A stretch of 15,556 nt of DNA. Origin: a virus. Lineage: Duplodnaviria > Heunggongvirae > Uroviricota > Caudoviricetes. Both the position numbers and the translations under genes were made by a program. Every line of letters begins with the position of its first letter. Position 1 is the stretch's first letter. This document shows positions 1,369 through 15,556 of this stretch, piece by piece. Under the pieces are notes generated by a model that did not search any database, was not told the DNA's origin, and was given only the letters and a program-made list of their open reading frames with translations. The stretch lies in IMG/VR virus record IMGVR_UViG_2541047911_000001, positions 1 to 15,556 of that record; one strand, given 5' to 3'.

Positions 1369-1444
1369 GCCGATATAGCTCAGTTGGTAGAGCAGCGCAT
1401 TCGTAATGCGAAGGTCGTAGGTTCGACTCCTATTATCGGCACCA
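1369..1444 (+). tRNA. thrW: tRNA-Thr, anticodon CGU
   Basis: 76-nt sequence GCCGATATAGCTCAGTTGGTAGAGCAGCGCATTCGTAATGCGAAGGTCGTAGGTTCGACTCCTATTATCGGCACCA folds as a cloverleaf (acceptor GCCGATA/TATCGGC, anticodon loop TTCGTAA, T-loop GGTTCGA, CCA end); lies directly after proA as thrW does in E. coli. Confidence 0.9.
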
Positions 1445-1610
1445 TTCTAACGTCTCGCCAAGTCTACTCAAGTATTTAAAAACCTCTTATAATCCGCATG
1501 TTAGCGCCCCTTTTAGTCTTTTGACGTCTACTTAAGTACCCCAAAATCTACAGTCAATTGGGGGTACTTTTGGGGGTATTTGCTGTTCGGTTTAGTGGAG
1601 GTACCCCCAA
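1428..1610. repeat. attL: tRNA 3' end core plus integrase-upstream region, repeated at 15049-15217
   Basis: TCCTATTATCG (1428-1438) recurs at 15049-15059; the following ~165 bp (1445-1610) is near-identical to 15061-15217 with a few substitutions and one ~12-bp deletion in the second copy. Confidence 0.8.
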
Positions 1611-2825
1611 GTGAAACTCAATGCCCGTCAAATAGACACTGCCAAGCCAAAAGAGAAGGCTTACAAGCTGGCTGATGGTGGTGGTCTGTATCTCTTGGTA
1701 AAACCTAGTGGAGGAAAATATTGGCGCTTCAAGTATCGTGTAGCTGGTAAAGAGAAGCTGTTAGCACTAGGTGTGTATCCTGAAGTTACCTTGGCTGATG
1801 CTCGTGCAAAACGTGAAGAAGCTAAAAGGGGTATCGCTGGGGGTATCGATCCGATGGAAGCGAAACGAGAGGAAAAGATTGCCCGGGAAACGCAGTTAAA
1901 CAACACCTTCAAAGATATTGCCCTTGAGTGGCACAGCAGCAAATTAAAAAAATGGTCTGCTGGTTATGCTTCAGACATCCTCGAAGCCTTCAACAAAGAT
2001 GTGTTCCCTTACATTGGCAAAAAACCAATCGCCGAAATCAAACCACTTGAACTGCTGAATGTGCTGCGGCGCATCGAGGGGCGCGGTGCTACCGAAAAAG
2101 CCAAAAAAGTGAGGCAGCGATGTGGGGAAGTTTTCCGCTATGCAATTGTCACTGGACGTGCTGAGTATAACCCTGCACCGGATCTCACCAGCGCGATGCA
2201 AGGTCATGAATCTAATCATTATCCTTTCCTCACAGCCAAAGAATTACCTGATTTTTTCAAGGCATTGTCCAGTTACTCAGGAAGTGCATTGGTTGTTATG
2301 GCGGCTCGTTTACTGATTATCACCGGTTTGCGGACTGGCGAACTGCGCGGTGCATTATGGGATGAAATCGATCTCAACAAGGCTATCTGGGAGATACCTG
2401 CTTCACGGATGAAAATGCGTCGCCCTCATGTAGTGCCTTTGTCTGAGCAGGCTCTTTCGCTTATTGGGCAGATTAAAGAACTAACTGGCAATTATCCGCT
2501 TATGTTTCCCGGCCGTAATGATCCAAGGAAAACAATGAGCGAGGCTAGCATAAACCAAGTATTTAAACGCATCGGCTATAACGGAAAGGTTACTGGTCAT
2601 GGCTTCCGGCACACTATGAGCACCATTTTGCATGAGCAGGGCTATAACACCGCGTGGATAGAGACACAGCTTGCGCACGTCGATAAAAACTCAATTCGTG
2701 GCACATACAACCATGCGCAATATCTGGATGGGCGGCGGGAAATGCTTCAGTGGTACGCTGATTATATGGATTCGCTCGAGCATGGCGGAAATGTGGTGCA
2801 TGGTGAGTTCGGAAAATGCGGGTGA
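1611..2825 (+). CDS. int: P4-type tyrosine integrase (site-specific recombinase), 404 aa, GTG start
   Basis: Starts 167 bp after the tRNA; GGAGG Shine-Dalgarno at ~1596-1600; N-terminal MKLNARQIDTAKPKEKAYKLADGGGLYLLVKP is typical of P4-family integrases; C-terminal region carries catalytic-type residues (…HGFRHT…, …LAHVD…, …RGTYNHAQY…). Confidence 0.9.
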   Translation: MKLNARQIDTAKPKEKAYKLADGGGLYLLVKPSGGKYWRFKYRVAGKEKLLALGVYPEVTLADARAKREEAKRGIAGGIDPMEAKREEKIARETQLNNTFKDIALEWHSSKLKKWSAGYASDILEAFNKDVFPYIGKKPIAEIKPLELLNVLRRIEGRGATEKAKKVRQRCGEVFRYAIVTGRAEYNPAPDLTSAMQGHESNHYPFLTAKELPDFFKALSSYSGSALVVMAARLLIITGLRTGELRGALWDEIDLNKAIWEIPASRMKMRRPHVVPLSEQALSLIGQIKELTGNYPLMFPGRNDPRKTMSEASINQVFKRIGYNGKVTGHGFRHTMSTILHEQGYNTAWIETQLAHVDKNSIRGTYNHAQYLDGRREMLQWYADYMDSLEHGGNVVHGEFGKCG

Positions 2826-2953
2826 CTGGTTGAGTATACAGTAGTAGACTTTGAGCGACGAAAGAAAAGGCTGTGTCTAGGGTCGCTCCCGAAAATCCGT
2901 ACACCTCGACGGACTGGTACAGCCACTACAGTAGAGGACGCTGAGGTGTGCGT

Positions 2954-3766: not shown

Positions 3767-3909
3767 ACCCTGAGGGTGATTTACTGTTACCCTGAGGGTA
3801 TTTTTTTATCTTCCCCGTCAATTTTACCATCACCCTTAGGGTAGATTTCCTCCCGATTACCATCACCCTTAGGGTAGATTTCCTTCCGGTAACCATTAGG
3901 CCTGAGGGT
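3767..3909. promoter_or_regulatory. Array of five ACCCT(G/T)AGGGT palindromes, including a perfect 25-bp direct repeat, upstream of the alpA-like gene
   Basis: ACCCTGAGGGT at 3767-3777 and 3789-3799; ACCATCACCCTTAGGGTAGATTTCC at 3826-3850 and 3859-3883 (33-bp periodicity); GCCTGAGGGT at 3899-3909. Confidence 0.55.
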
Positions 3910-3978: not shown

Positions 3979-4176
3979 ATGTCAAATACGCTTATTCGTT
4001 TAACAGAAGTTCAGCGTAGAACTGGATATAGCAAGGCATGGATTTATCGCCTTATGGGGCAAGGTAAATTTCCTGCATCAGTTAAAATTGGCTCGCGAGC
4101 TATTGCTTTCGTTGAGAGTGAAATTGACGAGTGGATTAATCAGCGTATTGCGGAATCACGCGGAACAGCTACCTGA
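3979..4176 (+). CDS. alpA: AlpA-family small HTH transcriptional regulator (prophage regulatory protein / excisionase-like), 65 aa
   Basis: Translation MSNTLIRLTEVQRRTGYSKAWIYRLMGQGKFPASVKIGSRAIAFVESEIDEWINQRI matches the AlpA/Xis-type pattern; GAGG Shine-Dalgarno 7-8 nt upstream; int-proximal position typical of P4-like and PICI islands. Symbol denotes family membership only. Confidence 0.75.
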   Translation: MSNTLIRLTEVQRRTGYSKAWIYRLMGQGKFPASVKIGSRAIAFVESEIDEWINQRIAESRGTAT

Positions 4177-4253: not shown

Positions 4254-5054
4254 ATGAAATTTCCAAAAATGCCCGTACAGGGGCGGGGCTTCGTTCGGCC
4301 TGAAAACCAGAATCTGCAAAATCTCGGCGAAATTATCCCGATTATTTCCGGCGTTATTGGCGGGAGTGAAACCAATATTGTTAGTGCCAGAGCGTTACAT
4401 AAGGCGTTAGGTGTAGGGCGCGTTTTCCGTTCGTGGATCAAGGGGCGCATTGAAGAATACGGCTTCACGGAAGGCGTGGATTATGAGGTTGTTGAATATT
4501 TGAGCCGACCCGATCCGGTGAGCGCAAAATCTCGCCAGCAAACAGCTCTTGAGTACATCATCACCGTGAACATGGCGAAAGAACTGGCGATGGTCGAACG
4601 TACCGAACAGGGCCGCGCCGTTCGCCAGTACTTTATCAAATGCGAGGAGGAGCTACACAAGGTTGCGCCTGTTCGTTCCGCAGCGTTACGCCGGGAACTG
4701 AAAGCCCGTATCACAGTTGCCAGCTACTTTAAGCCAATGTGTGCCGCGCTGGAGGCGTACCGGGCTGAACTGGGTAAAAACACACTCCAGCACCACTACA
4801 CCACGGAAGCGAACATGCTGGCGCGTATCGTGCTGGGTGGCATGACTGCAAAACAGTGGGCACTGGCGAACGGCATTACAGGCGAACCACGCGACCACAT
4901 GAGCACGTTGCAGCTTGAGCACCTTTCTTACCTTGAGCAGAGCAATATCACGCTGATTGAGTTAGGCCAGGACTACCACCAGCGGAAGGCTGAATTAATT
5001 CGTCTTTCGCAGCGTTGGTTAGCCCGTCGCATGGAGGAAAACAGCCATGTGTAA
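4254..5054 (+). CDS. AntA/AntB-like phage antirepressor-domain protein, 266 aa
   Basis: CAGGAG Shine-Dalgarno before the ATG; N-terminal region (…SARALHKALGV…FRSWIKGRIEEYGFTEGVDYEV… and …TALEYIITVNMAKELAMVERTEQGRAVRQYFIKCEEEL) resembles the AntA antirepressor N-terminal domain; C-terminal half unassigned. Confidence 0.6.
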   Translation: MKFPKMPVQGRGFVRPENQNLQNLGEIIPIISGVIGGSETNIVSARALHKALGVGRVFRSWIKGRIEEYGFTEGVDYEVVEYLSRPDPVSAKSRQQTALEYIITVNMAKELAMVERTEQGRAVRQYFIKCEEELHKVAPVRSAALRRELKARITVASYFKPMCAALEAYRAELGKNTLQHHYTTEANMLARIVLGGMTAKQWALANGITGEPRDHMSTLQLEHLSYLEQSNITLIELGQDYHQRKAELIRLSQRWLARRMEENSHV

Positions 5055-6354
5055 CGCTCTGACCGTTACAAAAAGAGAAAGCGCCCCGTTGCCGGAGCGC
5101 CTTTGTGAACGAATAGCCTACTGCGCCATATTGCTTACTGTCTACGAGGCAGATTATAGCGTTGTGGTCGCACAGAGTGAAGGCGCTGATCACCGTTACT
5201 ACAGCACGCCAGAAATGCAGAATATTTTGCTGCAAAATGTCGTTGGTCACACTGTCCGGAAAGCAAAAAATTTTGCTGGTGGCGCGACTGATGCGATTTT
5301 GTCAGGTCGCCAGGTGCTGATCAATCTGATGTCTGATTTCGTTCTGGATAAAACAAAGGCGACCGCAGAGGGCCGCCAGTGGGAAAGCTACATACTTGAA
5401 CGCATCGCCAACAATGCCAGATTTGCGGCTGGTGGGCAATGTGTCAGCTTTGCACCAATGACTCTATGTTTAACTGAGGGTCATTATGGTGAATATGCTG
5501 GCTTGCTGGTGGGCTATTCCTGCTCTTTAACATTGCCATGCCGCGATGTTTTACAGGTATGCGACCCCATTTTTGTGCGCCTGTACTCTTTAAGGAATTT
5601 CTCAAGGATAAACGCACAGGGCGCGAATCTGTTTGACTCATGCTCGTACGCTATCTTTCTGCGCTGTCTTTTCCGTGCCGGTGATGGTGTATTGGTTGAT
5701 TCTTTGTTGGTCATGGCGCAGCCCTGTAAAACGATGCACCGTAGTTCCTCACACCACGGCGCTGGTGATGGTTACTCCTGTTCTTTGGCCTTGCGGCGCT
5801 GGCGGTATTCAACTTCTCGCTTTAATGCTGCTGTTACAAACTGCCCTGTACTTTCACCAGGCATTTTTACCGCCTCAACATTGTTCATAACTTCATGCGG
5901 AACCCTTGCCGCAACTGTTTGTGATTTTGCGTTTACTGCTTTTGTCGCCATGTTGTGTACCCCTTACAAAAAACAAATGCAGTATGCAGGAAAAAAAATA
6001 AGTGTTCAACACTTGACGTGTTTAACACCTGGGCTTAAATTGGTGTTCAACACCTTGTTGATGCAAGGTGCAGAAACGACAACGCCCCGCAGTGGTGGCA
6101 CACATGCAGGGCGTCTAACCACCAACGATAGCAAGAGTATCGAGGTAGCTATGAGAAATCATACCACACACCCGCAAGGGCGGGACTCGCACAACCTGAA
6201 TAAATACATCTGGCGTTTTATCGCCCTGAGCACGGCACAACCGCGCGTAATTCACATCGAGGCCACCAGCGAACAGGAAGCACGCCAGCAATCTCCTGAT
6301 GGCTGCGTGATGGTATTCGCCGCCCGTATTCGCCAGGAGGTGGAACATGTGTAA
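5047..6354 (+). CDS. Long ORF (435 codons) of doubtful integrity: plausible gene start at 5047 with a protein-like first ~140 codons; the central part is probably not coding
   Basis: Start is translationally coupled to the upstream gene (ATGTGTAA overlap, GGAGGA Shine-Dalgarno). Codons ~150-370 are Cys/Ser/Thr-rich with many rare codons (AGG, ATA, CGG, TTA) and overlap an antisense gene and an operator cluster. Only the last ~67 codons look coding again. Confidence 0.3.
   Translation: MCNALTVTKRESAPLPERLCERIAYCAILLTVYEADYSVVVAQSEGADHRYYSTPEMQNILLQNVVGHTVRKAKNFAGGATDAILSGRQVLINLMSDFVLDKTKATAEGRQWESYILERIANNARFAAGGQCVSFAPMTLCLTEGHYGEYAGLLVGYSCSLTLPCRDVLQVCDPIFVRLYSLRNFSRINAQGANLFDSCSYAIFLRCLFRAGDGVLVDSLLVMAQPCKTMHRSSSHHGAGDGYSCSLALRRWRYSTSRFNAAVTNCPVLSPGIFTASTLFITSCGTLAATVCDFAFTAFVAMLCTPYKKQMQYAGKKISVQHLTCLTPGLKLVFNTLLMQGAETTTPRSGGTHAGRLTTNDSKSIEVAMRNHTTHPQGRDSHNLNKYIWRFIALSTAQPRVIHIEATSEQEARQQSPDGCVMVFAARIRQEVEHV
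5772..5951 (-). CDS. Ribbon-helix-helix-like small DNA-binding protein (59 aa), candidate repressor, antisense to the long ORF
   Basis: Minus-strand ATG at 5951, stop TAA at 5774-5772; translation MATKAVNAKSQTVAARVPHEVMNNVEAVKMPGESTGQFVTAALKREVEYRQRRKAKEQE has a strand-helix-helix pattern and host-like codons; AAGGGG Shine-Dalgarno upstream; divergent from the operator cluster at 6002-6053. Below the 60-aa cutoff of the ORF track. Confidence 0.5.
   Translation of the reverse strand: MATKAVNAKSQTVAARVPHEVMNNVEAVKMPGESTGQFVTAALKREVEYRQRRKAKEQE
6002..6053. promoter_or_regulatory. Three 11-bp palindromic operator-like sites GTGTT-N-AACAC overlapping a rightward promoter-like TTGACG-17-TAAATT
   Basis: GTGTTCAACAC at 6002-6012 and 6043-6053, GTGTTTAACAC at 6018-6028; -35-like TTGACG 6013-6018 and -10-like TAAATT 6036-6041. 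Confidence 0.55.
6151..6354 (+). CDS. small hypothetical protein (67 aa); likely the real first gene of the rightward operon (3' end of the long ORF)
   Basis: ATG at 6151 with GAGG 5-8 nt upstream, about 100 bp downstream of the operator/promoter cluster; ends …IRQEVEHV with an ATGTGTAA overlap into the next gene. Confidence 0.4.
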   Translation: MRNHTTHPQGRDSHNLNKYIWRFIALSTAQPRVIHIEATSEQEARQQSPDGCVMVFAARIRQEVEHV

Positions 6355-7352: not shown

Positions 7353-7643
7353 ATGAAAAAGAAAAATTCTGGCTTTACTGCCAGCGGCCTCTCTCGGCCT
7401 GAAATCCGCCCCGGTGATATTTTCCGGGACACCAGACGCGGGGGACGGGTGGTTATTCGTCACGTTACGCCAGGCAATATCACCTACCGCCGTGAGGCTT
7501 ACGAATATGACTGCGTAATGCCGCGCCGTCAGTTTGATCGTGATTTTATTGTGGTGGAAAACAAACAACAGGCAGTGGCGAGACGTGCAGCCACGAATAT
7601 TAAAAAAATCCGGGCAATGTTGGTTGCGGGAGGTAAGAAGTGA
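7353..7643 (+). CDS. small basic hypothetical protein, 96 aa
   Basis: AGGAAA Shine-Dalgarno; Arg/Lys-rich; stop overlaps the GTG start of the replication gene. Confidence 0.5.
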   Translation: MKKKNSGFTASGLSRPEIRPGDIFRDTRRGGRVVIRHVTPGNITYRREAYEYDCVMPRRQFDRDFIVVENKQQAVARRAATNIKKIRAMLVAGGKK

Positions 7644-9445
7644 AAAACGCACCGAGTCTAAAATATCAGCCGAAGGATAAATTCACTGAGGTAATCATTT
7701 TTGCCGGGATGGATGCTTACGCCCATGCTCAACACTGGATTGAAAGTGAAGGACGAAAACACGGCGATAACGTGCCTCCTGTTTACCTGGGACCAAAGCA
7801 ACTGGCAGACCTGGCGAATATCCGCATTATTGACGAGAAACGCCGTTTTGCGCGTGTCTATATCGCGGGGGAGATAGAGCCAATCCAGATCAATACTATC
7901 GCTGAAAAGCTGGCGCTGGCTGGCGTACAGGAGGCGAAATTATACAAAGGTATCACCGACCAGGAACCGGAGAACTGGCGCGACTACCTGCAACGGATCC
8001 GCGAACAGGCTGAGCACGGGGAAGTTTCAGTGATGAAATTAGCTACAAAAAATAGTGGTCTACCCAAGCCTGCATTAAATCAGATGGGAGCCAGCCAGAG
8101 AGGGGAAGTGTTACTTGAACATTATGGAGGAGCACTGGCGATAAATGATGATTCTGATGTAGTTCACCATTACAACGGAATTGTTTGGGAGCCTGTATCT
8201 GATAAGGAACTCCAGCGGTCTATGGCGAAGATTTTTATTGATGCCGAAATTAGTTATTCGCAAAACGCCATTAAATTTGCCGTAGAGACAATGAAATTGA
8301 GTCTACCTGTTATGGGGGGAGCGGACAGAAATCTTATTGGGTTCAGTAACGGTGTTTTTGATATCAGGACAGGAAATTTTCGGGAACACAACAAAAATGA
8401 CTGGTTGTTAAATGCCAGTGAATTACCGTTCAGCCCGCCAGAAGAGGGGGAAACGCTGGCAACACATGCGCCGAATTTCTGGAAGTGGTTGCGTCGTTCG
8501 GTGGCGGATAATGCTCGTAAAGCGGATCGCGTACTGGCGGCATTATTCATGGTACTGGCGAACCGGTACGACTGGCAGTTATTCCTTGAGGTAACGGGGC
8601 CGGGCGGAAGCGGTAAAAGTGTGATGGCGGAGATTTGTACCATGCTGGCGGGTAAGGCCAATACAGTATCGGCGAGCATGAAGGCGCTGGAAGACGCGAG
8701 GGAACGAGCGTTAGTGGTGGGATATTCTCTGATTATCATGCCTGACATGACCCGCTACGCAGGTGATGGTGCTGGGATTAAGGCCATTACAGGCGGTGAC
8801 AAGGTGGCTATCGATCCGAAACACAAAGCGCCCTATTCCACGCGCGTTCCTGCGGTAGTGCTGGCAGTAAACAATTATGCCATGTCATTCAGCGACCGTA
8901 GTGGGGGGATCTCGCGTCGACGAGTAATATTTAATTTCTCTGAGGTTGTACCAGAGAACGAACGCGATCCGATGCTGGCGAAAAAGATAGAAGGGGAACT
9001 GGCAGTAGTGATTCGCCATTTGCTTACACGATTTGCCGACCAGGACGAAGCGAAAAGACTACTTTATGAGCAGCAAAAATCAGAAGAAGCACTGTTGATA
9101 AAGCGTGAAGGTGATTCGCTGGTGGACTTCTGCGGTTATCTGATGTCGTTGGTTAAATGTGAGGGAATGATAGTAGGTAATGCAGAAATAGTGCCATTTA
9201 GTCCGAGGCGATATCTGTATCATGCTTATTTGGCTTATATGTCTGCGCATGGTCTGGGAAAACCGGTATCACTGACACGCTTTGGTACAGATATGCCAGG
9301 GGCAATGGCTGAGTACGGAAAGGAGTACAAGCGGGCTAAATGCACTAAAGGTCCAGATAAAGGGCGAACGATCACAAATGTTCTGTTAGATAAAGATGCT
9401 GATGGATGGTTACCAGCAACGGCAGGCATTAACGACAGAACATGA
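7640..9445 (+). CDS. P4-family primase/helicase-type replication protein (P-loop NTPase, SF3-helicase-like), 601 aa, GTG start
   Basis: Walker A GPGGSGKS and a downstream hydrophobic-run-plus-Asp Walker B candidate (…LIIMPD…) are visible; size, position (followed by iterons) and architecture match P4 alpha C-terminal or PICI pri-rep proteins; no obvious zinc-binding primase motif. Confidence 0.8.
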   Translation: MKNAPSLKYQPKDKFTEVIIFAGMDAYAHAQHWIESEGRKHGDNVPPVYLGPKQLADLANIRIIDEKRRFARVYIAGEIEPIQINTIAEKLALAGVQEAKLYKGITDQEPENWRDYLQRIREQAEHGEVSVMKLATKNSGLPKPALNQMGASQRGEVLLEHYGGALAINDDSDVVHHYNGIVWEPVSDKELQRSMAKIFIDAEISYSQNAIKFAVETMKLSLPVMGGADRNLIGFSNGVFDIRTGNFREHNKNDWLLNASELPFSPPEEGETLATHAPNFWKWLRRSVADNARKADRVLAALFMVLANRYDWQLFLEVTGPGGSGKSVMAEICTMLAGKANTVSASMKALEDARERALVVGYSLIIMPDMTRYAGDGAGIKAITGGDKVAIDPKHKAPYSTRVPAVVLAVNNYAMSFSDRSGGISRRRVIFNFSEVVPENERDPMLAKKIEGELAVVIRHLLTRFADQDEAKRLLYEQQKSEEALLIKREGDSLVDFCGYLMSLVKCEGMIVGNAEIVPFSPRRYLYHAYLAYMSAHGLGKPVSLTRFGTDMPGAMAEYGKEYKRAKCTKGPDKGRTITNVLLDKDADGWLPATAGINDRT

Positions 9446-9473: not shown

Positions 9474-9809
9474 GTAGACGGTTGGTAGACAGATACACTT
9501 AACCCTCTACCAACCATCTACTAATTAATGTTTTGAATTATATAGGTATTTTTAATGTGGTAGAGAGGTGGACAGTTTATTTTATATTTCTAAACCACGG
9601 GGGTATCTAAAAATAGATAGTTATGGGTTCATTTTTAAAATTTTTCTTTTAACTATCTACACTGTCTACCATTTAGTAAAAGTCATTAATTATCAATGTA
9701 TTAATACTGTAGAGAGTTGGTAGACAGTTTGCAGATTGTTTTTTTGTTATGTATTAATAACATTAAATAAATCAAACAATTATATCGGTAGACAGTTGGT
9801 AGACAGTTG
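9474..9809. repeat. Origin-like AT-rich region with multiple GGTAGACAGTT-type iterons in both orientations
   Basis: GTAGACGGTTGGTAGACAG 9474-9492 with inverted partner CTCTACCAACCATCTAC 9505-9521; GTGGTAGAGAGGTGGACAGTT 9557-9577; ATCTACACTGTCTACC 9655-9670; CTGTAGAGAGTTGGTAGACAGTT 9707-9729; GGTAGACAGTTGGTAGACAGTTG 9787-9809; A/T-rich spacers, e.g. 9620-9650. Confidence 0.65.
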
Positions 9810-10641: not shown

Positions 10642-10644
10642 CGG

Positions 10645-10672
10645 AGGCCGGGATTTTTCCCGGCCTTATTGC
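10645..10672 (+). terminator. Rho-independent terminator-like hairpin after the perC-like gene
   Basis: GGCCGGG (10646-10652), loop ATTTTT, CCCGGCC (10659-10665), followed by a T-rich tract. Confidence 0.55.
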
Positions 10673-10751
10673 ATTTCATTAATTGCAATATTTATTGCTA
10701 TCATTTCATTTTGTGCAATTGTTGTGGTTGTTATTATTCGGGAGAAAAATC

Positions 10752-10919
10752 ATGAAAGGTCACGGAGTAAAGCCAGTTTTACTTTCCCGGAGGCAGATTG
10801 AAGCCCTGCAACGTATCCAGGACGAAGAGCGTCAGAAATCTGTGCTTGGTGTGGCGCCGTCGATTCATGTTATTGCCCGGCAACTGATGGATAAGGCACT
10901 TAAAGAGGTGAGACTGTGA
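10752..10919 (+). CDS. small hypothetical protein, 55 aa, possible DNA-binding regulator
   Basis: ATG at 10752 with GGGAGAAAAA Shine-Dalgarno; the ORF track's upstream start at 10683 lacks a ribosome-binding site and runs through the promoter region; translationally coupled to the next gene. Confidence 0.45.
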   Translation: MKGHGVKPVLLSRRQIEALQRIQDEERQKSVLGVAPSIHVIARQLMDKALKEVRL

Positions 10920-11188: not shown

Positions 11189-11287
11189 ATCAGTAAGGGG
11201 CGGTTATTGCCCCTTTCCTCCATACCCACAACGCATTCCCTTTCCGCATGAAATTATTTTTTATCGTATACGCATGAGGTGAGCTAC

Positions 11288-11815
11288 ATGTTGATGAGTA
11301 AAGCCGAATACGCCAAATACAAAGGCGTAAGCCGCCAGACAGTTTACGACTGGATCGAGAAAGGCGAAGTGATCATGTCTGGCAAAAAAATTGATGTGGA
11401 GGCGACAGAGCAGCGGAACAGCCCACCGGCACAAGGGAAAGACACCGTTTCTGAAATGTGGCCAGAAAGAACGCTGGAAATGACGTGGGGCGAGTTCTGG
11501 AAAGCAGTTAAGGCCAGAGACGGTAAAATTCCTTCGCCAGTAACGGACGATGACATACAGCAGCGTGTGCTGTATGCAGCCGGGGAATTAGGCTGGGAAG
11601 TGCACTTTCTTGATGATGGTGCTATCTGCCTTGAGGATGATGAAGGGCAGCATTACTTTGAAAAATACAATTTGCGAGGTAATGCCAGGCTGGCAATTCG
11701 TATGCTGCGTTGCGAACTCTGCTATGTTGCAGGTGATTATCCCGATGAACTGGAATCATGGAGTGAAACCGGGCTAAACGCCCTGGCTGAATGGGAAAAA
11801 TCAGACCATCAATGA
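11288..11815 (+). CDS. HTH-domain protein, 176 aa; candidate small-terminase-like / packaging-redirecting DNA-binding protein
   Basis: ATG at 11288 with GAGGTG Shine-Dalgarno 9 nt upstream (track uses GTG 11279); N-terminus MLMSKAEYAKYKGVSRQTVYDWIEKGEV is a winged-HTH pattern like the lambda Nu1 N-terminus and the AlpA/MerR class; followed immediately by a repeat array. Confidence 0.55.
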   Translation: MLMSKAEYAKYKGVSRQTVYDWIEKGEVIMSGKKIDVEATEQRNSPPAQGKDTVSEMWPERTLEMTWGEFWKAVKARDGKIPSPVTDDDIQQRVLYAAGELGWEVHFLDDGAICLEDDEGQHYFEKYNLRGNARLAIRMLRCELCYVAGDYPDELESWSETGLNALAEWEKSDHQ

Positions 11816-11818
11816 CAT

Positions 11819-12023
11819 CAAAAAGTGTCAAGTTGAGCAGCTTGCCAGGTTGACACTTTACACTCTGAACGCGAAAAAGTGTCAACCTCGCTGTAAACCC
11901 CGCCGTTACTGGCTTTGCGCCAGATTTACCACGTCAAAAAACCGAAAAATCGCGAAAAGTGTCAAGTTGCCATGCTTAGAAATGCTAAGGTTTGATAAGG
12001 TTTTTCGCGAAAAAGTGTCAACC
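11819..12023. repeat. Four direct copies and one inverted copy of (CG)AAAAGTGTCAA(G/C): candidate packaging (cosB-like) or regulatory site
   Basis: Direct copies at 11821-11833, 11874-11887, 11955-11969 and 12010-12022; inverted copy TTGACACTTT at 11850-11859. Confidence 0.5.
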
Positions 12024-12053
12024 AGCCCCCTAAGATTTCCTAAGGTGTAAACC

Positions 12054-12233
12054 ATGACCATCACCGAAGCCGATTTGCTGGAGATGATCCGCAGCATTGC
12101 CGGAATCAAACAACCAGCAAGCAAAATTAACAGGTGTTCAGCGCCTGTTTCCGTTGTGCTGCAACAGGAACGCCACCAGCATGATGATGTGAGGCCGTAT
12201 CAGTGGCGGAAACCGAACAGGCTGCGACGGTGA
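12054..12233 (+). CDS. possible small ORF, 59 aa, upstream of the cargo gene
   Basis: ATG at 12054 with AAGGTG 7 nt upstream; just under the ORF-track cutoff; hairpin-plus-T-run at ~12273-12296 downstream; coding status uncertain. Confidence 0.3.
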   Translation: MTITEADLLEMIRSIAGIKQPASKINRCSAPVSVVLQQERHQHDDVRPYQWRKPNRLRR

Positions 12234-12673
12234 GCGGGGCGTTATAGTAAGCCAACAGCCAAGCCAAACATTAAGCCTAAGGGTAGGGCTTTTTTGTGGC
12301 TGGTGGCGTAATGCCAACATTGTTACATGATGTTTTGAGGTATTATCTGCATGTTCGTGGTGAGGAACCACCAGAACTGATGAGCTTTTGTTTATGCATG
12401 TACTGCATGAAAACTGTCCTATAAAGTGGGGGTAGGTGTGCTGAGGAGAACATTGTGAGCTACGCCAAATTAAATTGTGTCGGGGGTGAACAAGTTTCTT
12501 GATAGGTGTCAGTAGGCACCTATAGTTATAGGCTTCTTCAATTTTGTGTGCACAATATTTTGTATTGATTGGGGATAGGGTTGCACGCAAAATTAAAAAA
12601 TGTATATTTATTAACGTGTATTTGATGATTTTTAAAAAAAATATTTCTCTATGTTTATCATAAAAGGTTTTTT

Positions 12674-14272
12674 ATGAGCGTGGCAATAAAAACAATGACA
12701 CCAATGTCATATTCTATAAAAGTTGATGCGATTAAGAAAAGATTGTCATATTTTAGTGATGTTTCTTTTTTGAGAAATTTTTATGAACACTTCCAAAAAG
12801 TAAGGGATGTCGAGGTGGGTATTGTTTCCAATTTCCCTTGGTGTTGCTATCTGGCAATGAAATGGAAGTTTTGCATGAAGGAAAAAAAGCCTGCAAAAGA
12901 AATGAGTAAAAATGATTTTATTGATATTATCAACTTAATCTATAACTTGCAACTAGAAGCATCTAATTTAATCGTTGATGATAAAGTTATGCTAAGCCTT
13001 AGACGAATGGTGATAAATCAGTTGCTTTATCAATCAACTGATAAATTTAATGCTAATTCATTAACAAGACAGTATATTTGGTATTGCTTGAATGATGAAT
13101 CATATTATAAAGATAAGTTTTTAGAATGTACTGGTTTACATTTGGAAAGCTATTACAAAATGGCATGTTATTTTACTGCTATTTCATGTATTAATCCTGA
13201 TGTAGAATCAGAGGTTATTCCATTTAAACACTTGATAATAAACTTGGTTCCGATATTTGGTCCGGAACAAGTGAAAAAATTTTTGGAATTAACATGCTTA
13301 AAAATTGATGGTGTAAGAGATTTTATTGCCCCATATAAATTGGATAAAAACATTACCGCTGAGTATTATGAAGATACACCATTCCTCAGTAAACCAATGT
13401 TTTTAGATGGCGATGGTGTAGTGATATTATGCAAAAGAATCATGAAGTCAGGGTTTGTCAACCTAGTTCCAGAATTGTTCAAGCAGGTCTATAAGGAATC
13501 TTATAAAGAAAAATTTGGTAAGACGATGGAACTTTATATTTCTCGCTTTCTTGATAAGTACAATTATAACTTTAAGACTGAAAGGGAGGTTAAGAAGATT
13601 TATAGTGATAATGCAATAAAAAATTGCAAGTCCGTAGATTTTGTTATTTCAGAGGGAGATTCAATAGTTTATATTGACTCGAAGGCAATAGAGCCTGCAA
13701 AGTTCGTTAAAACATCTAATAATGCTCAGTTGCTAAAGGAAAGGTTGAATAAGAGTTTTATTAAAGGGATTTATCAAGGTCAGGAATGTGCTTTTAACTT
13801 AAATAAAATAGAGATGAGAAAACCATCTTCGAAAGATTCAATGTTAATTGTGGTGCATCGGGATCATCATATATCAAATGCAATGGTTGTGCAGGATTTT
13901 ATTAACCCTGATTTATCAACTGAGTTATCTGAAAAATATCATAGTACCCCCATTGATCTAAAAAGAATTTACTATATAACAATTGATGAGTTCGAATTAT
14001 TACTTATGATGTGTAAACAGAAAGAACTATCTATTAATGAGTTTATTGATATGTGTGTGGAAAAAGATTCATTCCCTCATACTCAGAAGTCTAATCTAAG
14101 CATGCACATATATGAATTTGCACCAGAGGGTATTGATGATGATCAATTGATTGTAAAAGGAAGAGACTTACTGATTGATGATGTTATTGAAAATATGAAA
14201 GAGAGTGCATCAAAATGGTCTGGGAAAGTTGATATGTATCTTAAAATAAAAGATTATATTTTTAATTGGTAA
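12674..14272 (+). CDS. AT-rich orphan protein of unknown function, 532 aa; candidate anti-phage defence / abortive-infection effector with a possible PD-(D/E)xK-like core
   Basis: Long uninterrupted ORF with a composition very different from the rest of the island; AAAAGG Shine-Dalgarno 8 nt before the ATG; AT-rich promoter-like leader; perfect hairpin downstream; last gene before attR. Confidence 0.8.
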   Translation: MSVAIKTMTPMSYSIKVDAIKKRLSYFSDVSFLRNFYEHFQKVRDVEVGIVSNFPWCCYLAMKWKFCMKEKKPAKEMSKNDFIDIINLIYNLQLEASNLIVDDKVMLSLRRMVINQLLYQSTDKFNANSLTRQYIWYCLNDESYYKDKFLECTGLHLESYYKMACYFTAISCINPDVESEVIPFKHLIINLVPIFGPEQVKKFLELTCLKIDGVRDFIAPYKLDKNITAEYYEDTPFLSKPMFLDGDGVVILCKRIMKSGFVNLVPELFKQVYKESYKEKFGKTMELYISRFLDKYNYNFKTEREVKKIYSDNAIKNCKSVDFVISEGDSIVYIDSKAIEPAKFVKTSNNAQLLKERLNKSFIKGIYQGQECAFNLNKIEMRKPSSKDSMLIVVHRDHHISNAMVVQDFINPDLSTELSEKYHSTPIDLKRIYYITIDEFELLLMMCKQKELSINEFIDMCVEKDSFPHTQKSNLSMHIYEFAPEGIDDDQLIVKGRDLLIDDVIENMKESASKWSGKVDMYLKIKDYIFNW

Positions 14273-14276
14273 TTAA

Positions 14277-14304
14277 GCAAGGGTGTTATTATCAACACCC
14301 TTGC
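14277..14304 (+). terminator. Perfect 11-bp-stem hairpin after the cargo gene (terminator-like; no strong T-run)
   Basis: GCAAGGGTGTT (14277-14287), loop ATTATC, AACACCCTTGC (14294-14304). Confidence 0.5.
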
Positions 14305-15048
14305 TCATAGTCTTACAATATTAAATGTTGTGTTTTTTATTTATATATTTTATTGCCCGTCAAGCTATTAATTCATCTCGTTGTTTGAGATAGGTTGAGC
14401 ATTTGTATTTTTTTATCAATTTTATCTGTATGAGCTTAAGCAGCTTCAATAATATCTGCGTTAAATTACGCTTCATTCAGAGACGTGCTTGCTATTGACA
14501 TGTAATCCATGTGCAACAAGATTCCTGCCATAACTTATGCGTTTCAGAGCCGAATCATGGACTGCTTTAAGTCATTTTTGTAGGGAAAACATGTTCACAT
14601 GTCAGCACTGATTTGTTTCATCACATATCCACTATCTCGAATTCCTGTGTCGATAGATGAATGCAGACGGAAATATGTAAATTTTGTGCACGCTCTGCTA
14701 TTAAGCGAAAACGAGCGTGGGTATATCAACTAATAATTGCCCTCATTAACATAGGTGGTGGCGGGTATAATCTCTGTAACCCAGTTGTTCGTGACTACCC
14801 ACCTCGTCAAATTTTCACACCCGCGAAATAAAAAATACTTCACGCTAGTGGTTATCCTTGGGCATCCACCAGCCCTTCATCATTGCCTGCCGGTGAGGCT
14901 GAGGCTCGAAGAAAAAGAGTGCTAGATAGTCGATTTTTGCCTGGTTTGGGATAAGGGAAAATTTATTGGGGGTACTTTTGGGGGTATCTATAAAAATGAA
15001 ATATGAAAATATCATTAAATATCAATGTATTTGTTGTTTATGTTTTGT

Positions 15049-15217
15049 TCCTATTATCGCCCATTCTAACGTCTCCCCAAGTCTACTCAAGTATTTAAAA
15101 ACCTCTTATAATCAGTATATTAATGCCCCTTTTAGTCTTTTGACGTCTATTTAAGTACCCCAAACTCTACAAGCAATTGAGGGGATTTGCTGTTCAGTTT
15201 AGTGGAGATACCCCCAA
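15049..15217. repeat. attR of the first island / left junction of a second tandem island
   Basis: TCCTATTATCG at 15049-15059 followed by a near-identical copy of the sequence found after thrW at 1445-1610. Confidence 0.8.
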
Positions 15218-15556
15218 GTGAAACTCAATGCCCGTCAAATAGACACTGCCAAGCCAAAAGAGAAGGCTTACAAGTTGGCTGATGGTGGTGGTCTGTACCT
15301 CCTGGTAAAACCTGGTGGAGGAGAATATTGGCGTCTCAAGTATCGTGTAGCTGGTAAAGAGAAGCTGTTAGCACTAGGTGTGTATCCTGAGGTCACCTTA
15401 GCTGATGCTCCTGCAAAACTTGAAGAAGCTAAAAGAGGTATCTCTGGGGGAATCGATCTGATGGAAGTGAAGCGAGAGGAAAAGATTGCCCGGGAAACGC
15501 AGTTAAACAACACCTTCAAAGATATTGCCCTTGAGTGGCACAGTAACAAATTATAA
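15218..15556 (+). CDS. int: Second P4-type integrase, N-terminal 112 codons only; in-frame TAA at the window edge
   Basis: GTG start in the same context as the first integrase; protein closely similar to the first integrase N-terminus with scattered substitutions; TAA at 15554-15556 where the first copy has AAA. Confidence 0.7.
   Translation: MKLNARQIDTAKPKEKAYKLADGGGLYLLVKPGGGEYWRLKYRVAGKEKLLALGVYPEVTLADAPAKLEEAKRGISGGIDLMEVKREEKIARETQLNNTFKDIALEWHSNKL

What the first reader, a model, noticed from the sequence alone, without database searches (positions are those of the whole stretch)
12674..14272. AT-rich 532-aa orphan gene in the terminal cargo slot: candidate undescribed single-gene anti-phage module
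This CDS is strikingly AT-rich. By eye it is about one third G+C versus about one half in proA and the island replication genes, and AAA, ATT, GAT and TTT codons dominate. It has its own AT-rich promoter-like leader (about 12590-12670), an AAAAGG Shine-Dalgarno, and a perfect 11-bp-stem hairpin downstream (14277-14304). It is the last gene before attR, after the replication and packaging-like modules. That is the variable accessory position where satellite elements are reported to carry defence cargo. I cannot place the protein in a family. It has no Walker A, no reverse-transcriptase YxDD and no HEPN Rx4-6H. The only motif I can point to is around nt 13631-13693 (…TEREV…SVDFVISEGDSIVYIDSKAIE…), which has the spacing of a PD-(D/E)xK nuclease core. 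If real, that suggests a nuclease effector with a ~300-aa N-terminal sensor region. That reading rests on one short motif.
Basis: partly seen in the sequence, partly recalled or inferred. Interest (0 to 1): 0.88.

Follow-up and report, generated by a model that had tools for sequence, protein, structure and literature searches.

The report
Known GapS1 anti-phage nuclease gene
The AT-rich 532-aa gene is not an orphan: it is gapS1, a published single-protein anti-phage nuclease, and over the 380 nt available for comparison it is almost identical to an E. coli allele already cloned and shown to block coliphages.

Summary
The sequence description holds. There is a 532-aa ORF at 12674-14272 with 30.6% GC, against 47.8% for the rest of the island. 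An 11-bp hairpin follows it, and it is the last gene before attR. The "orphan/undescribed" reading does not hold. The protein matches NCBIfam NF047931 "antiphage_GapS1" over the full model (442 bits, cutoff 320). The identical sequence is already named "GapS1 family protein" in UniRef, and near-identical alleles (>=99% DNA identity) are annotated gapS1 in four of the six complete E. coli genomes carrying the gene. Its first 380 nt are 379/380 identical to the insert of EGQ2075554.1, an E. coli GAPS1 homolog that Mahata et al. cloned and showed to protect against coliphages. D322 and K337 align without gaps to D313 and K328 of Vibrio GAPS1, whose alanine mutants lose defence. Both are invariant in 177/177 family representatives, and the predicted fold matches restriction-type PD-(D/E)xK nucleases. 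The "cargo slot" idea is also right: sister islands carry PARIS or other genes at this position. The one mildly new point is a structure-only resemblance to the defence protein Upx that includes the non-nuclease N-terminal region. Verdict: already known, low interest.

The parts
12674..14272 (+). gapS1 coding sequence (532 aa plus stop), a single-protein anti-phage defence gene
   Evidence: ORF. NCBIfam NF047931 antiphage_GapS1, E = 2.1e-132, 442 bits against a cutoff of 320, aa 20-478 covering model positions 1-455 of 455. Exact protein named GapS1 family protein in UniRef. Annotated gapS1 in RefSeq genomes. 379/380 nt identical to the cloned EGQ2075554.1 insert.
12674..13483 (+). N-terminal, mostly helical, non-nuclease region (aa 1-270); presumed sensor or regulatory scaffold
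13529..13777 (+). PD-(D/E)xK catalytic core: E286 (13529-13531), D322 (13637-13639), D335-S-K337 (13676-13684), Q368 (13775-13777)
12662..12667 (+). Weak Shine-Dalgarno-like AAAAGG, six nt upstream of the ATG
   Evidence: Read directly from the sequence. Function is inferred.
12499..12526 (+). Best-scoring sigma-70-like site upstream of gapS1 (TTGATA-16-TATAGT, 10/12); candidate promoter only
   Evidence: The number of such sites in the region is not above the shuffled expectation, so this is weak evidence.
14277..14304 (+). Perfect 11-bp hairpin four nt after the stop codon; probable 3' stabiliser or weak terminator
   Evidence: 66-nt fold of 14265-14330 containing the hairpin: dG -21.1 kcal/mol, z -4.83. 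No T-run follows and the terminator scan does not call it.
12316..14530 (.). Low-GC gapS1 cargo cassette (leader, gene, hairpin, AT-rich tail)
   Evidence: Homology to sister islands with other cargo ends at 12021 or 12315. Window ~14530-14950 recurs in 272 E. coli genomes, only six of which carry gapS1. GC is about 0.30 from 12500 to 14500.
14530..15065 (.). Conserved non-coding right arm of the island, ending in attR (degenerate thrW 3' end TCCTATTATCG--CCCA at about 15049-15063)
1369..1444 (+). tRNA-Thr (CGT), thrW: the integration site and attL side of the island
   Evidence: ARAGORN; Rfam tRNA, 71.8 bits.
1611..2825 (+). Tyrosine integrase of the island that carries gapS1
   Evidence: Pfam Arm-DNA-bind_3, Phage_int_M and Phage_integrase.

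Best explanation
The gene is gapS1, a member of the published GAPS1 family of single-protein anti-phage systems. It is carried as a low-GC cassette of about 2.2 kb in the variable slot next to attR of an integrase/AlpA/primase satellite-like island inserted at thrW. By homology the most likely mechanism is as follows. The protein sits inactive until a phage structural protein appears during infection; for Vibrio GAPS1 this is the T7 major capsid protein Gp10. Its PD-(D/E)xK phosphodiesterase site (E286, D322, D335, K337) then becomes active, and the cell enters growth arrest (dormancy rather than death), which stops phage propagation. Shown here: family membership, an intact and strictly conserved catalytic site, a nuclease-like predicted fold, near-identity to a phage-tested allele, and the swappable island position. 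Taken from the literature on homologs: the defence phenotype, the need for the catalytic D and K, the capsid trigger, and dormancy. Inferred or unknown: the trigger and substrate for this allele, the promoter, and the role of the hairpin.
Against: No experiment exists on this exact allele (M11 here, V11 in the clone). Only the first 380 nt of the cloned insert are held in the supplement, so full-length identity to EGQ2075554.1 is inferred from cluster members. The capsid trigger and dormancy were shown for the Vibrio protein, which the paper reports shares 24-29% identity with the three E. coli homologs it cloned, so the trigger may differ here. The nucleic-acid or other substrate is unknown even for the founder. 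PADLOC 2.0 and Pfam give no family hit, which fits libraries that do not yet include the family. Expression from a promoter of its own is not demonstrated.
Confidence: 0.93

Rival explanations
1. It is the same GapS1 protein, but it defends by cutting phage nucleic acid directly, like a restriction enzyme or Upx, rather than by causing host dormancy.
For: The structural neighbours are restriction endonucleases and nickases (BspD6I, Bse634I, HindIII, Cfr10I, FokI). The closest solved structure, Upx, degrades ssDNA and phage replication intermediates (PMC13099982). The GAPS1 authors state that the target is unknown and that active elimination of the phage is possible.
Against: Co-expressing Vibrio GAPS1 with T7 Gp10 alone, with no phage genome present, arrested growth. 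Infection of the native E. coli strain at high MOI also gave growth arrest rather than normal growth. Both observations point to a host-directed or non-discriminating activity.
Confidence: 0.15
2. It is an undescribed orphan defence gene with no known family.
For: Pfam and PADLOC 2.0 give no significant hit. Some RefSeq records still call it a hypothetical protein.
Against: The curated NCBIfam model matches at 442 bits. The family is published and tested experimentally. A near-identical allele has been cloned and tested. DefenseFinder detects GAPS1.
Confidence: 0.01
3. The gene mainly serves the satellite's own life cycle, for example by sensing the helper phage's capsid protein to time or bias satellite packaging, rather than serving host defence.
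For: It sits after the replication genes and a weak TerS-like gene of a satellite-like island. The family's known trigger is a capsid protein.
Against: Homologs work as stand-alone defence genes on a plasmid with no satellite present. The same slot holds unrelated defence systems such as PARIS. Homologs also occur outside satellites: in GMT islands, on plasmids, in P2-like phages and in Pseudomonas islands.
Confidence: 0.04
4. It is a decaying or inactive remnant of horizontally acquired DNA.
For: Its GC content is far below the host's, and the promoter is unverified.
Against: The ORF is intact and full length, with all catalytic residues present. It is 99% or more identical at the DNA level across six genomes, and the exact protein was seen on 45 contigs. 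The AF2 model is confident.
Confidence: 0.02

Closest known systems
GAPS1 / GapS1 (Vibrio parahaemolyticus WP_005477165.1; E. coli homologs EGQ2075554.1, EJP5250929.1, WP_152927281.1, WP_194242909.1; Mahata et al., bioRxiv 10.1101/2023.03.28.534373)
   Same: Both are single proteins; all family representatives found here are about 500-560 aa. Both have a PD-(D/E)xK site towards the C-terminal half, with the same 15-residue D-to-K spacing. The NCBIfam model is matched over its full length. The window gene is 379/380 nt identical to the tested EGQ2075554.1 insert over the part held. Both are carried on mobile islands.
   Different: The carrier here is an integrase/AlpA/primase satellite-like island at thrW, not a GMT island. 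The window protein has M11 where the clone has V11. It is far from the Vibrio founder in sequence: the paper reports 24-29% identity between the founder and the three E. coli homologs it cloned, one of which (EGQ2075554.1) is this allele. The trigger for this clade has not been determined.
Upx (Salmonella enterica; PDB 9wuf; PMC13099982, PMC13601566)
   Different: Upx is much longer (the Upx paper's domain map runs to residue 1272; the PDB chain is 1212 residues), has two nuclease domains and senses terminase. GapS1 is 532 aa with one nuclease site, and its family's known trigger is the capsid protein. A 125-sequence profile finds no sequence similarity. Global TM-score is only 0.32. Which Upx residues align could not be determined.
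PARIS (AriA/AriB), the satellite hotspot cargo of Rousset et al. 2022 (PMC9122126)
   Same: It occupies the same attR-proximal slot in a sister island with the same backbone (L004). It is also a defence system reported to trigger growth arrest on sensing a phage protein.
   Different: It is a two-gene system (AAA ATPase plus a DUF4435 protein), unrelated in sequence and fold, and it is triggered by an anti-restriction protein.
Type II restriction endonucleases and nickases (N.BspD6I, R.BspD6I small subunit, Bse634I, HindIII, Cfr10I, FokI)
   Different: There is no adjacent methyltransferase: the nearest annotated upstream gene encodes only 59 aa and nothing is encoded downstream. There is no sequence similarity. 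GapS1 has additional helical regions, and its activity is triggered by phage rather than being constitutive.

Membership tests
GapS1 / GAPS1 anti-phage family | Significant full-length match to the curated family model (NCBIfam NF047931), above its cutoff | tested here: met
   E = 2.1e-132, 442.2 bits against a cutoff of 320; aa 20-478 cover model positions 1-455 of 455.
GapS1 / GAPS1 anti-phage family | Conserved PD-(D/E)xK active site equivalent to D313 and K328 of the founder, which are required for defence | tested here: met
   The founder peptide rebuilt from the mutagenesis primers aligns without gaps, putting D313 on D322 and K328 on K337. D322 and K337 are present in 177/177 representatives and position 335 is D or E in 177/177.
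GapS1 / GAPS1 anti-phage family | Stand-alone single gene of about 500-540 aa with no conserved partner gene | tested here: met
   Nearly all of the 150 best representatives are 480-560 aa and match over the full length. Neighbouring genes differ between loci. Only a 59-aa backbone ORF lies upstream and nothing lies downstream.
GapS1 / GAPS1 anti-phage family | Identity with an experimentally validated member | tested here: met
   379/380 nt (126/127 aa) identical to the cloned EGQ2075554.1 insert. Only the first 380 nt are held. The remainder is inferred from V11 cluster members, which are 98.5% or more identical.
GapS1 / GAPS1 anti-phage family | Phage-resistance phenotype, activation by a capsid protein, dormancy outcome | not testable with these tools
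   Known only from the paper, for the Vibrio founder and for E. coli homologs.
PD-(D/E)xK phosphodiesterase superfamily | Alpha-beta-beta-beta-alpha-beta core, with E in helix 1, D at the start of strand 2 and (D/E)xK in strand 3 | tested here: met
PD-(D/E)xK phosphodiesterase superfamily | Metal-dependent nuclease activity on a defined substrate | not testable with these tools
   No biochemistry has been reported for any GapS1 in the library searched.
Upx defence family | Sequence homology to Upx, with its roughly 1200-aa dual-nuclease architecture | tested here: not met
   Neither the 29-sequence nor the 125-sequence profile hits Upx in PDB, even at E <= 10. The protein is 532 aa with one catalytic site. 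Only structural resemblance is found.
PICI-type phage satellite (carrier element; core components per de Sousa et al. 2023, PMC10085698) | Integrase, AlpA-type regulator and primase-replicase | tested here: met
   Integrase 1611-2825, AlpA-like 3979-4176 and primase 7640-9445; int-alpA RNA at 2870-2937.
PICI-type phage satellite (carrier element; core components per de Sousa et al. 2023, PMC10085698) | Small-terminase homolog and capsid-morphogenesis gene | tested here: inconclusive
   ORF 11279-11815 gives only a weak TerS hit (phrog_57, E = 1.7e-6, confined to its HTH region). No capsid-morphogenesis gene was found among the ORFs scanned. Mobilisation by a helper phage is untested.
P4-like satellite | Psu, Delta and Sid capsid-hijacking genes | tested here: inconclusive
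   None of the larger ORFs scanned with Pfam or PHROGs matched these, but not every small ORF was scanned.
Type II restriction-modification system | A cognate methyltransferase next to the nuclease | tested here: not met
   No gene large enough lies within the cassette 12316-14530 other than gapS1.

The most novel reading that the evidence does not exclude
Probability: 0.3. Interest if true: 0.35.

Novelty: already known. Interest (0 to 1): 0.12.

Why it matters
It matters little as a discovery. The family, its catalytic residues, its phenotype and even this allele are already published and annotated. It also documents that the attR-proximal slot of thrW satellite-like islands exchanges GapS1, PARIS and still-uncharacterised genes. 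The two hypothetical genes in strain 116333 and the 662-aa protein in strain 67-1 are better candidates for something new than gapS1 is. The structure-only link to Upx is a small lead towards how GapS1 is held inactive and then activated.

Tried and rejected
PADLOC 2.0 (2023) gave no hit and Pfam gave only a sub-threshold TPD hit over the catalytic core, seen in 3 of 29 members. This is explained by the age of the libraries and is not evidence of novelty.

A second homolog search with a more divergent profile returned the same 45 proteins. The genome-contig scan found 10 loci but no Vibrio locus. The founder sequence could therefore not be fetched directly, so I rebuilt its active-site peptide from the published mutagenesis primers.

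The accessions WP_021560560, WP_054626965 and WP_135543965 are absent from the supplementary text that is held. The held files are truncated, so this says nothing either way.

Profile searches of PDB sequences found nothing relevant, and in particular no Upx.

Rfam found no RNA family in 12000-15100; the only hit is a sub-threshold snoRNA match that is chance.

The promoter scan is not above the shuffled expectation, and the hairpin is not called an intrinsic terminator.

I rejected a HEPN reading of R34-x4-H39 because R34 is not conserved.

I rejected the 150-aa minus-strand ORF at 12138-12590 as a partner gene: it has a TTG start, no family hit, and is not annotated in RefSeq.

Full report
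**Observation**

The window holds a 532-codon ORF at 12674-14272 on the + strand. Its GC content is 0.306 (GC3 0.286). The rest of the island is 0.478 and proA is 0.552, and the sliding profile stays near 0.30 from about 12500 to 14500. AAA, GAT, ATT, TAT and TTT are the commonest codons.

AAAAGG lies six nt before the ATG. A perfect 11-bp hairpin at 14277-14304 follows the stop codon. In the 66-nt fold that contains it, dG is -21.1 kcal/mol and z = -4.83. No T-run follows the hairpin, and the terminator scan does not call it. Promoter-like sites in the region are not above chance (16 found, 13.4 +/- 3.7 expected).

The gene is the last one before attR. A degenerate copy of the thrW 3' end sits at about 15049-15063. 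Immediately after it, the attL-side sequence and the integrase 5' end are repeated at 90-93% identity, so a second integrase island lies in tandem. The descriptive part of the finding is therefore confirmed.

**Identity**

The protein matches NCBIfam NF047931 "antiphage_GapS1" at E = 2.1e-132, with 442 bits against a cutoff of 320, covering the whole 455-position model. The identical sequence is in public databases, is named "GapS1 family protein" by UniRef, and was seen on 45 contigs. Six of 5,426 complete E. coli genomes carry the gene at 99% DNA identity or more, and four of them annotate it as gapS1.

PADLOC 2.0 (2023) and Pfam do not know the family. DefenseFinder does report GAPS1 (PMC13153251).

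The family was defined by Mahata et al. (bioRxiv 10.1101/2023.03.28.534373). Their findings, as read, are these:
- GAPS1 of Vibrio parahaemolyticus is a single protein with a PD-(D/E)xK domain.
- D313A and K328A abolish defence.
- T7 escape mutants map to the capsid protein Gp10.
- Co-expression with Gp10 causes dormancy rather than death.
- Three E. coli homologs protected against coliphages when cloned.
- Deleting a native homolog in strain ZH142-A abolished protection.

**Link to a tested allele**

The paper's supplementary table gives the cloned insert of E. coli homolog EGQ2075554.1. The 380 nt that are held match window 12674-13053 at 379/380 positions, with one amino-acid difference (V11 in the clone, M11 here). 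V11 alleles in the same 90% cluster differ from the window protein at 4-8 of 532 residues, and none of those is catalytic.

**Catalytic site and fold**

I rebuilt the founder's active-site peptide from the D313A and K328A primers. GKVV-D313-FLHQRNGTSIFIDA-K328-GVEP aligns without gaps to CKSV-D322-FVISEGDSIVYIDS-K337-AIEP in the window protein.

An exhaustive profile search found 1,235 clusters at 50% identity with E <= 1e-3, and 430 with E <= 1e-30. Among 177 full-length representatives, D322 and K337 are present in 177/177. Position 335 is D or E in 177/177. E286 is present in 170/177 and Q368 in 173/177.

**Context**

The carrier is an island at thrW with these parts:
- integrase and an int-alpA RNA (Rfam RF02996, 2870-2937)
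- AlpA and AntA
- an Icd-like repressor
- a D5-type primase
- ProQ/FinO and PerC
- a weak TerS-like HTH protein

This fits the PICI-type core set only in part (PMC10085698). That paper also notes that accessory genes typically lie after the terS homolog, which is where gapS1 sits.

Sister islands share the backbone up to window 12021 or 12315 and again from about 14530 or 14950 to attR. In between they carry PARIS AriA/AriB (strain FDAARGOS_403), a 662-aa "RNA-binding domain" protein (strain 67-1), or two hypothetical proteins (strain 116333). The gapS1 cassette is therefore about 12316-14530, which matches the low-GC block.

Elsewhere, homologs lie next to a defence-associated reverse transcriptase in Ferrimonas and next to a PADLOC candidate in Pseudomonas. 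A 20%-identical full-length relative sits right after the integrase of a P2-like Klebsiella phage. A few homologs are on plasmids. In 8 of 10 other genera the gene is well below its flanks in GC.

**What may be new**

Upx is a single-protein PD-(D/E)xK defence that is activated by phage terminase (PMC13099982, PMC13601566). The main text of the Upx structure paper does not contain the term GAPS1, and neither Upx paper appeared in the full-text searches for that term. A 125-sequence GapS1 profile finds no sequence similarity to Upx. I could not see which Upx residues align. I therefore treat this as a lead and not as family membership.

**Verdict**

This is a known, annotated and experimentally supported defence gene. 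Interest is low. The uncharacterised genes occupying the same slot in sister islands are the better leads.

Noticed in passing
window 1442-1869 and 15061-15476; 15049-15063; 15218-15556: Two integrase islands lie in tandem at thrW. The attL-side sequence plus the integrase 5' end recurs at 90-93% identity straight after a degenerate copy of the tRNA 3' end, and a second P4-type integrase gene runs off the end of the window. In the two gapS1-carrying complete genomes whose annotation was examined (EC23-1020 and UTAK-5), gapS1 is instead followed by the yagP'/paoD chromosomal flank.
   Followed up: partly
window 9474-9492, 9709-9727, 9788-9806: Three iteron-like direct repeats (GTAGACAGTTGGTAGACAG) lie in the AT-rich gap (GC 0.36-0.38) between the primase gene and the ProQ/FinO gene. 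This is a candidate replication origin for the island.
   Followed up: no
window 2870-2937 (+): There is an Rfam int-alpA RNA (RF02996; 45.5 bits, gathering score 35.8) between the integrase and the next ORF.
   Followed up: no
window 3824-3889: A 33-nt unit is duplicated in tandem at 94% identity, about 90 bp upstream of the alpA-like gene. It could be a regulatory binding site.
   Followed up: no
window 5047-6354 (+): The 435-aa ORF is probably over-called. Only aa 347-435 match an Icd-like/repressor family (phrog_6196). RefSeq annotation of the related genome instead places a minus-strand YlcI/YnfO gene and an Icd-like fragment there.
   Followed up: partly
L005:8409-10016 (E. coli 116333) and L003:8747-10735 (E. 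coli 67-1): In sister islands the slot that gapS1 occupies here holds other genes. One island has two hypothetical proteins (275 and 259 aa) with no convincing PADLOC hit. Another has a 662-aa 'RNA-binding domain' protein with only weak hits to pAgo and SIR2-associated models. These are possible uncharacterised defence cargo.
   Followed up: partly
L004:8532-10488 (E. coli FDAARGOS_403): A PARIS system (AriA E = 5e-43, AriB E = 3.6e-22) occupies the same slot on the same backbone, next to the same right arm.
   Followed up: yes
window 10642-10900 compared with L002:10220-12310: The window's island lacks a segment of about 1.8 kb that is present in strain EC23-1020 and others. That segment includes an 1143-nt hypothetical gene and three small genes. 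The window therefore comes from an island variant not present in the complete-genome set.
   Followed up: no
L016:3959-5509 (Klebsiella phage ST437-OXA245phi4.1): A distant full-length GapS1 relative (about 20% identity) lies directly after the integrase of a P2-like temperate phage. Relatives occur in 17 phage records in all, 16 of them Klebsiella phages, and match phrog_14259, a family of unknown function.
   Followed up: partly
L006:9999-10187 (Phytobacter diazotrophicus): An integrase N-terminal fragment lies about 400 bp downstream of the gapS1 homolog. This echoes the order seen in the window: gapS1, then attR, then the next integrase.
   Followed up: no
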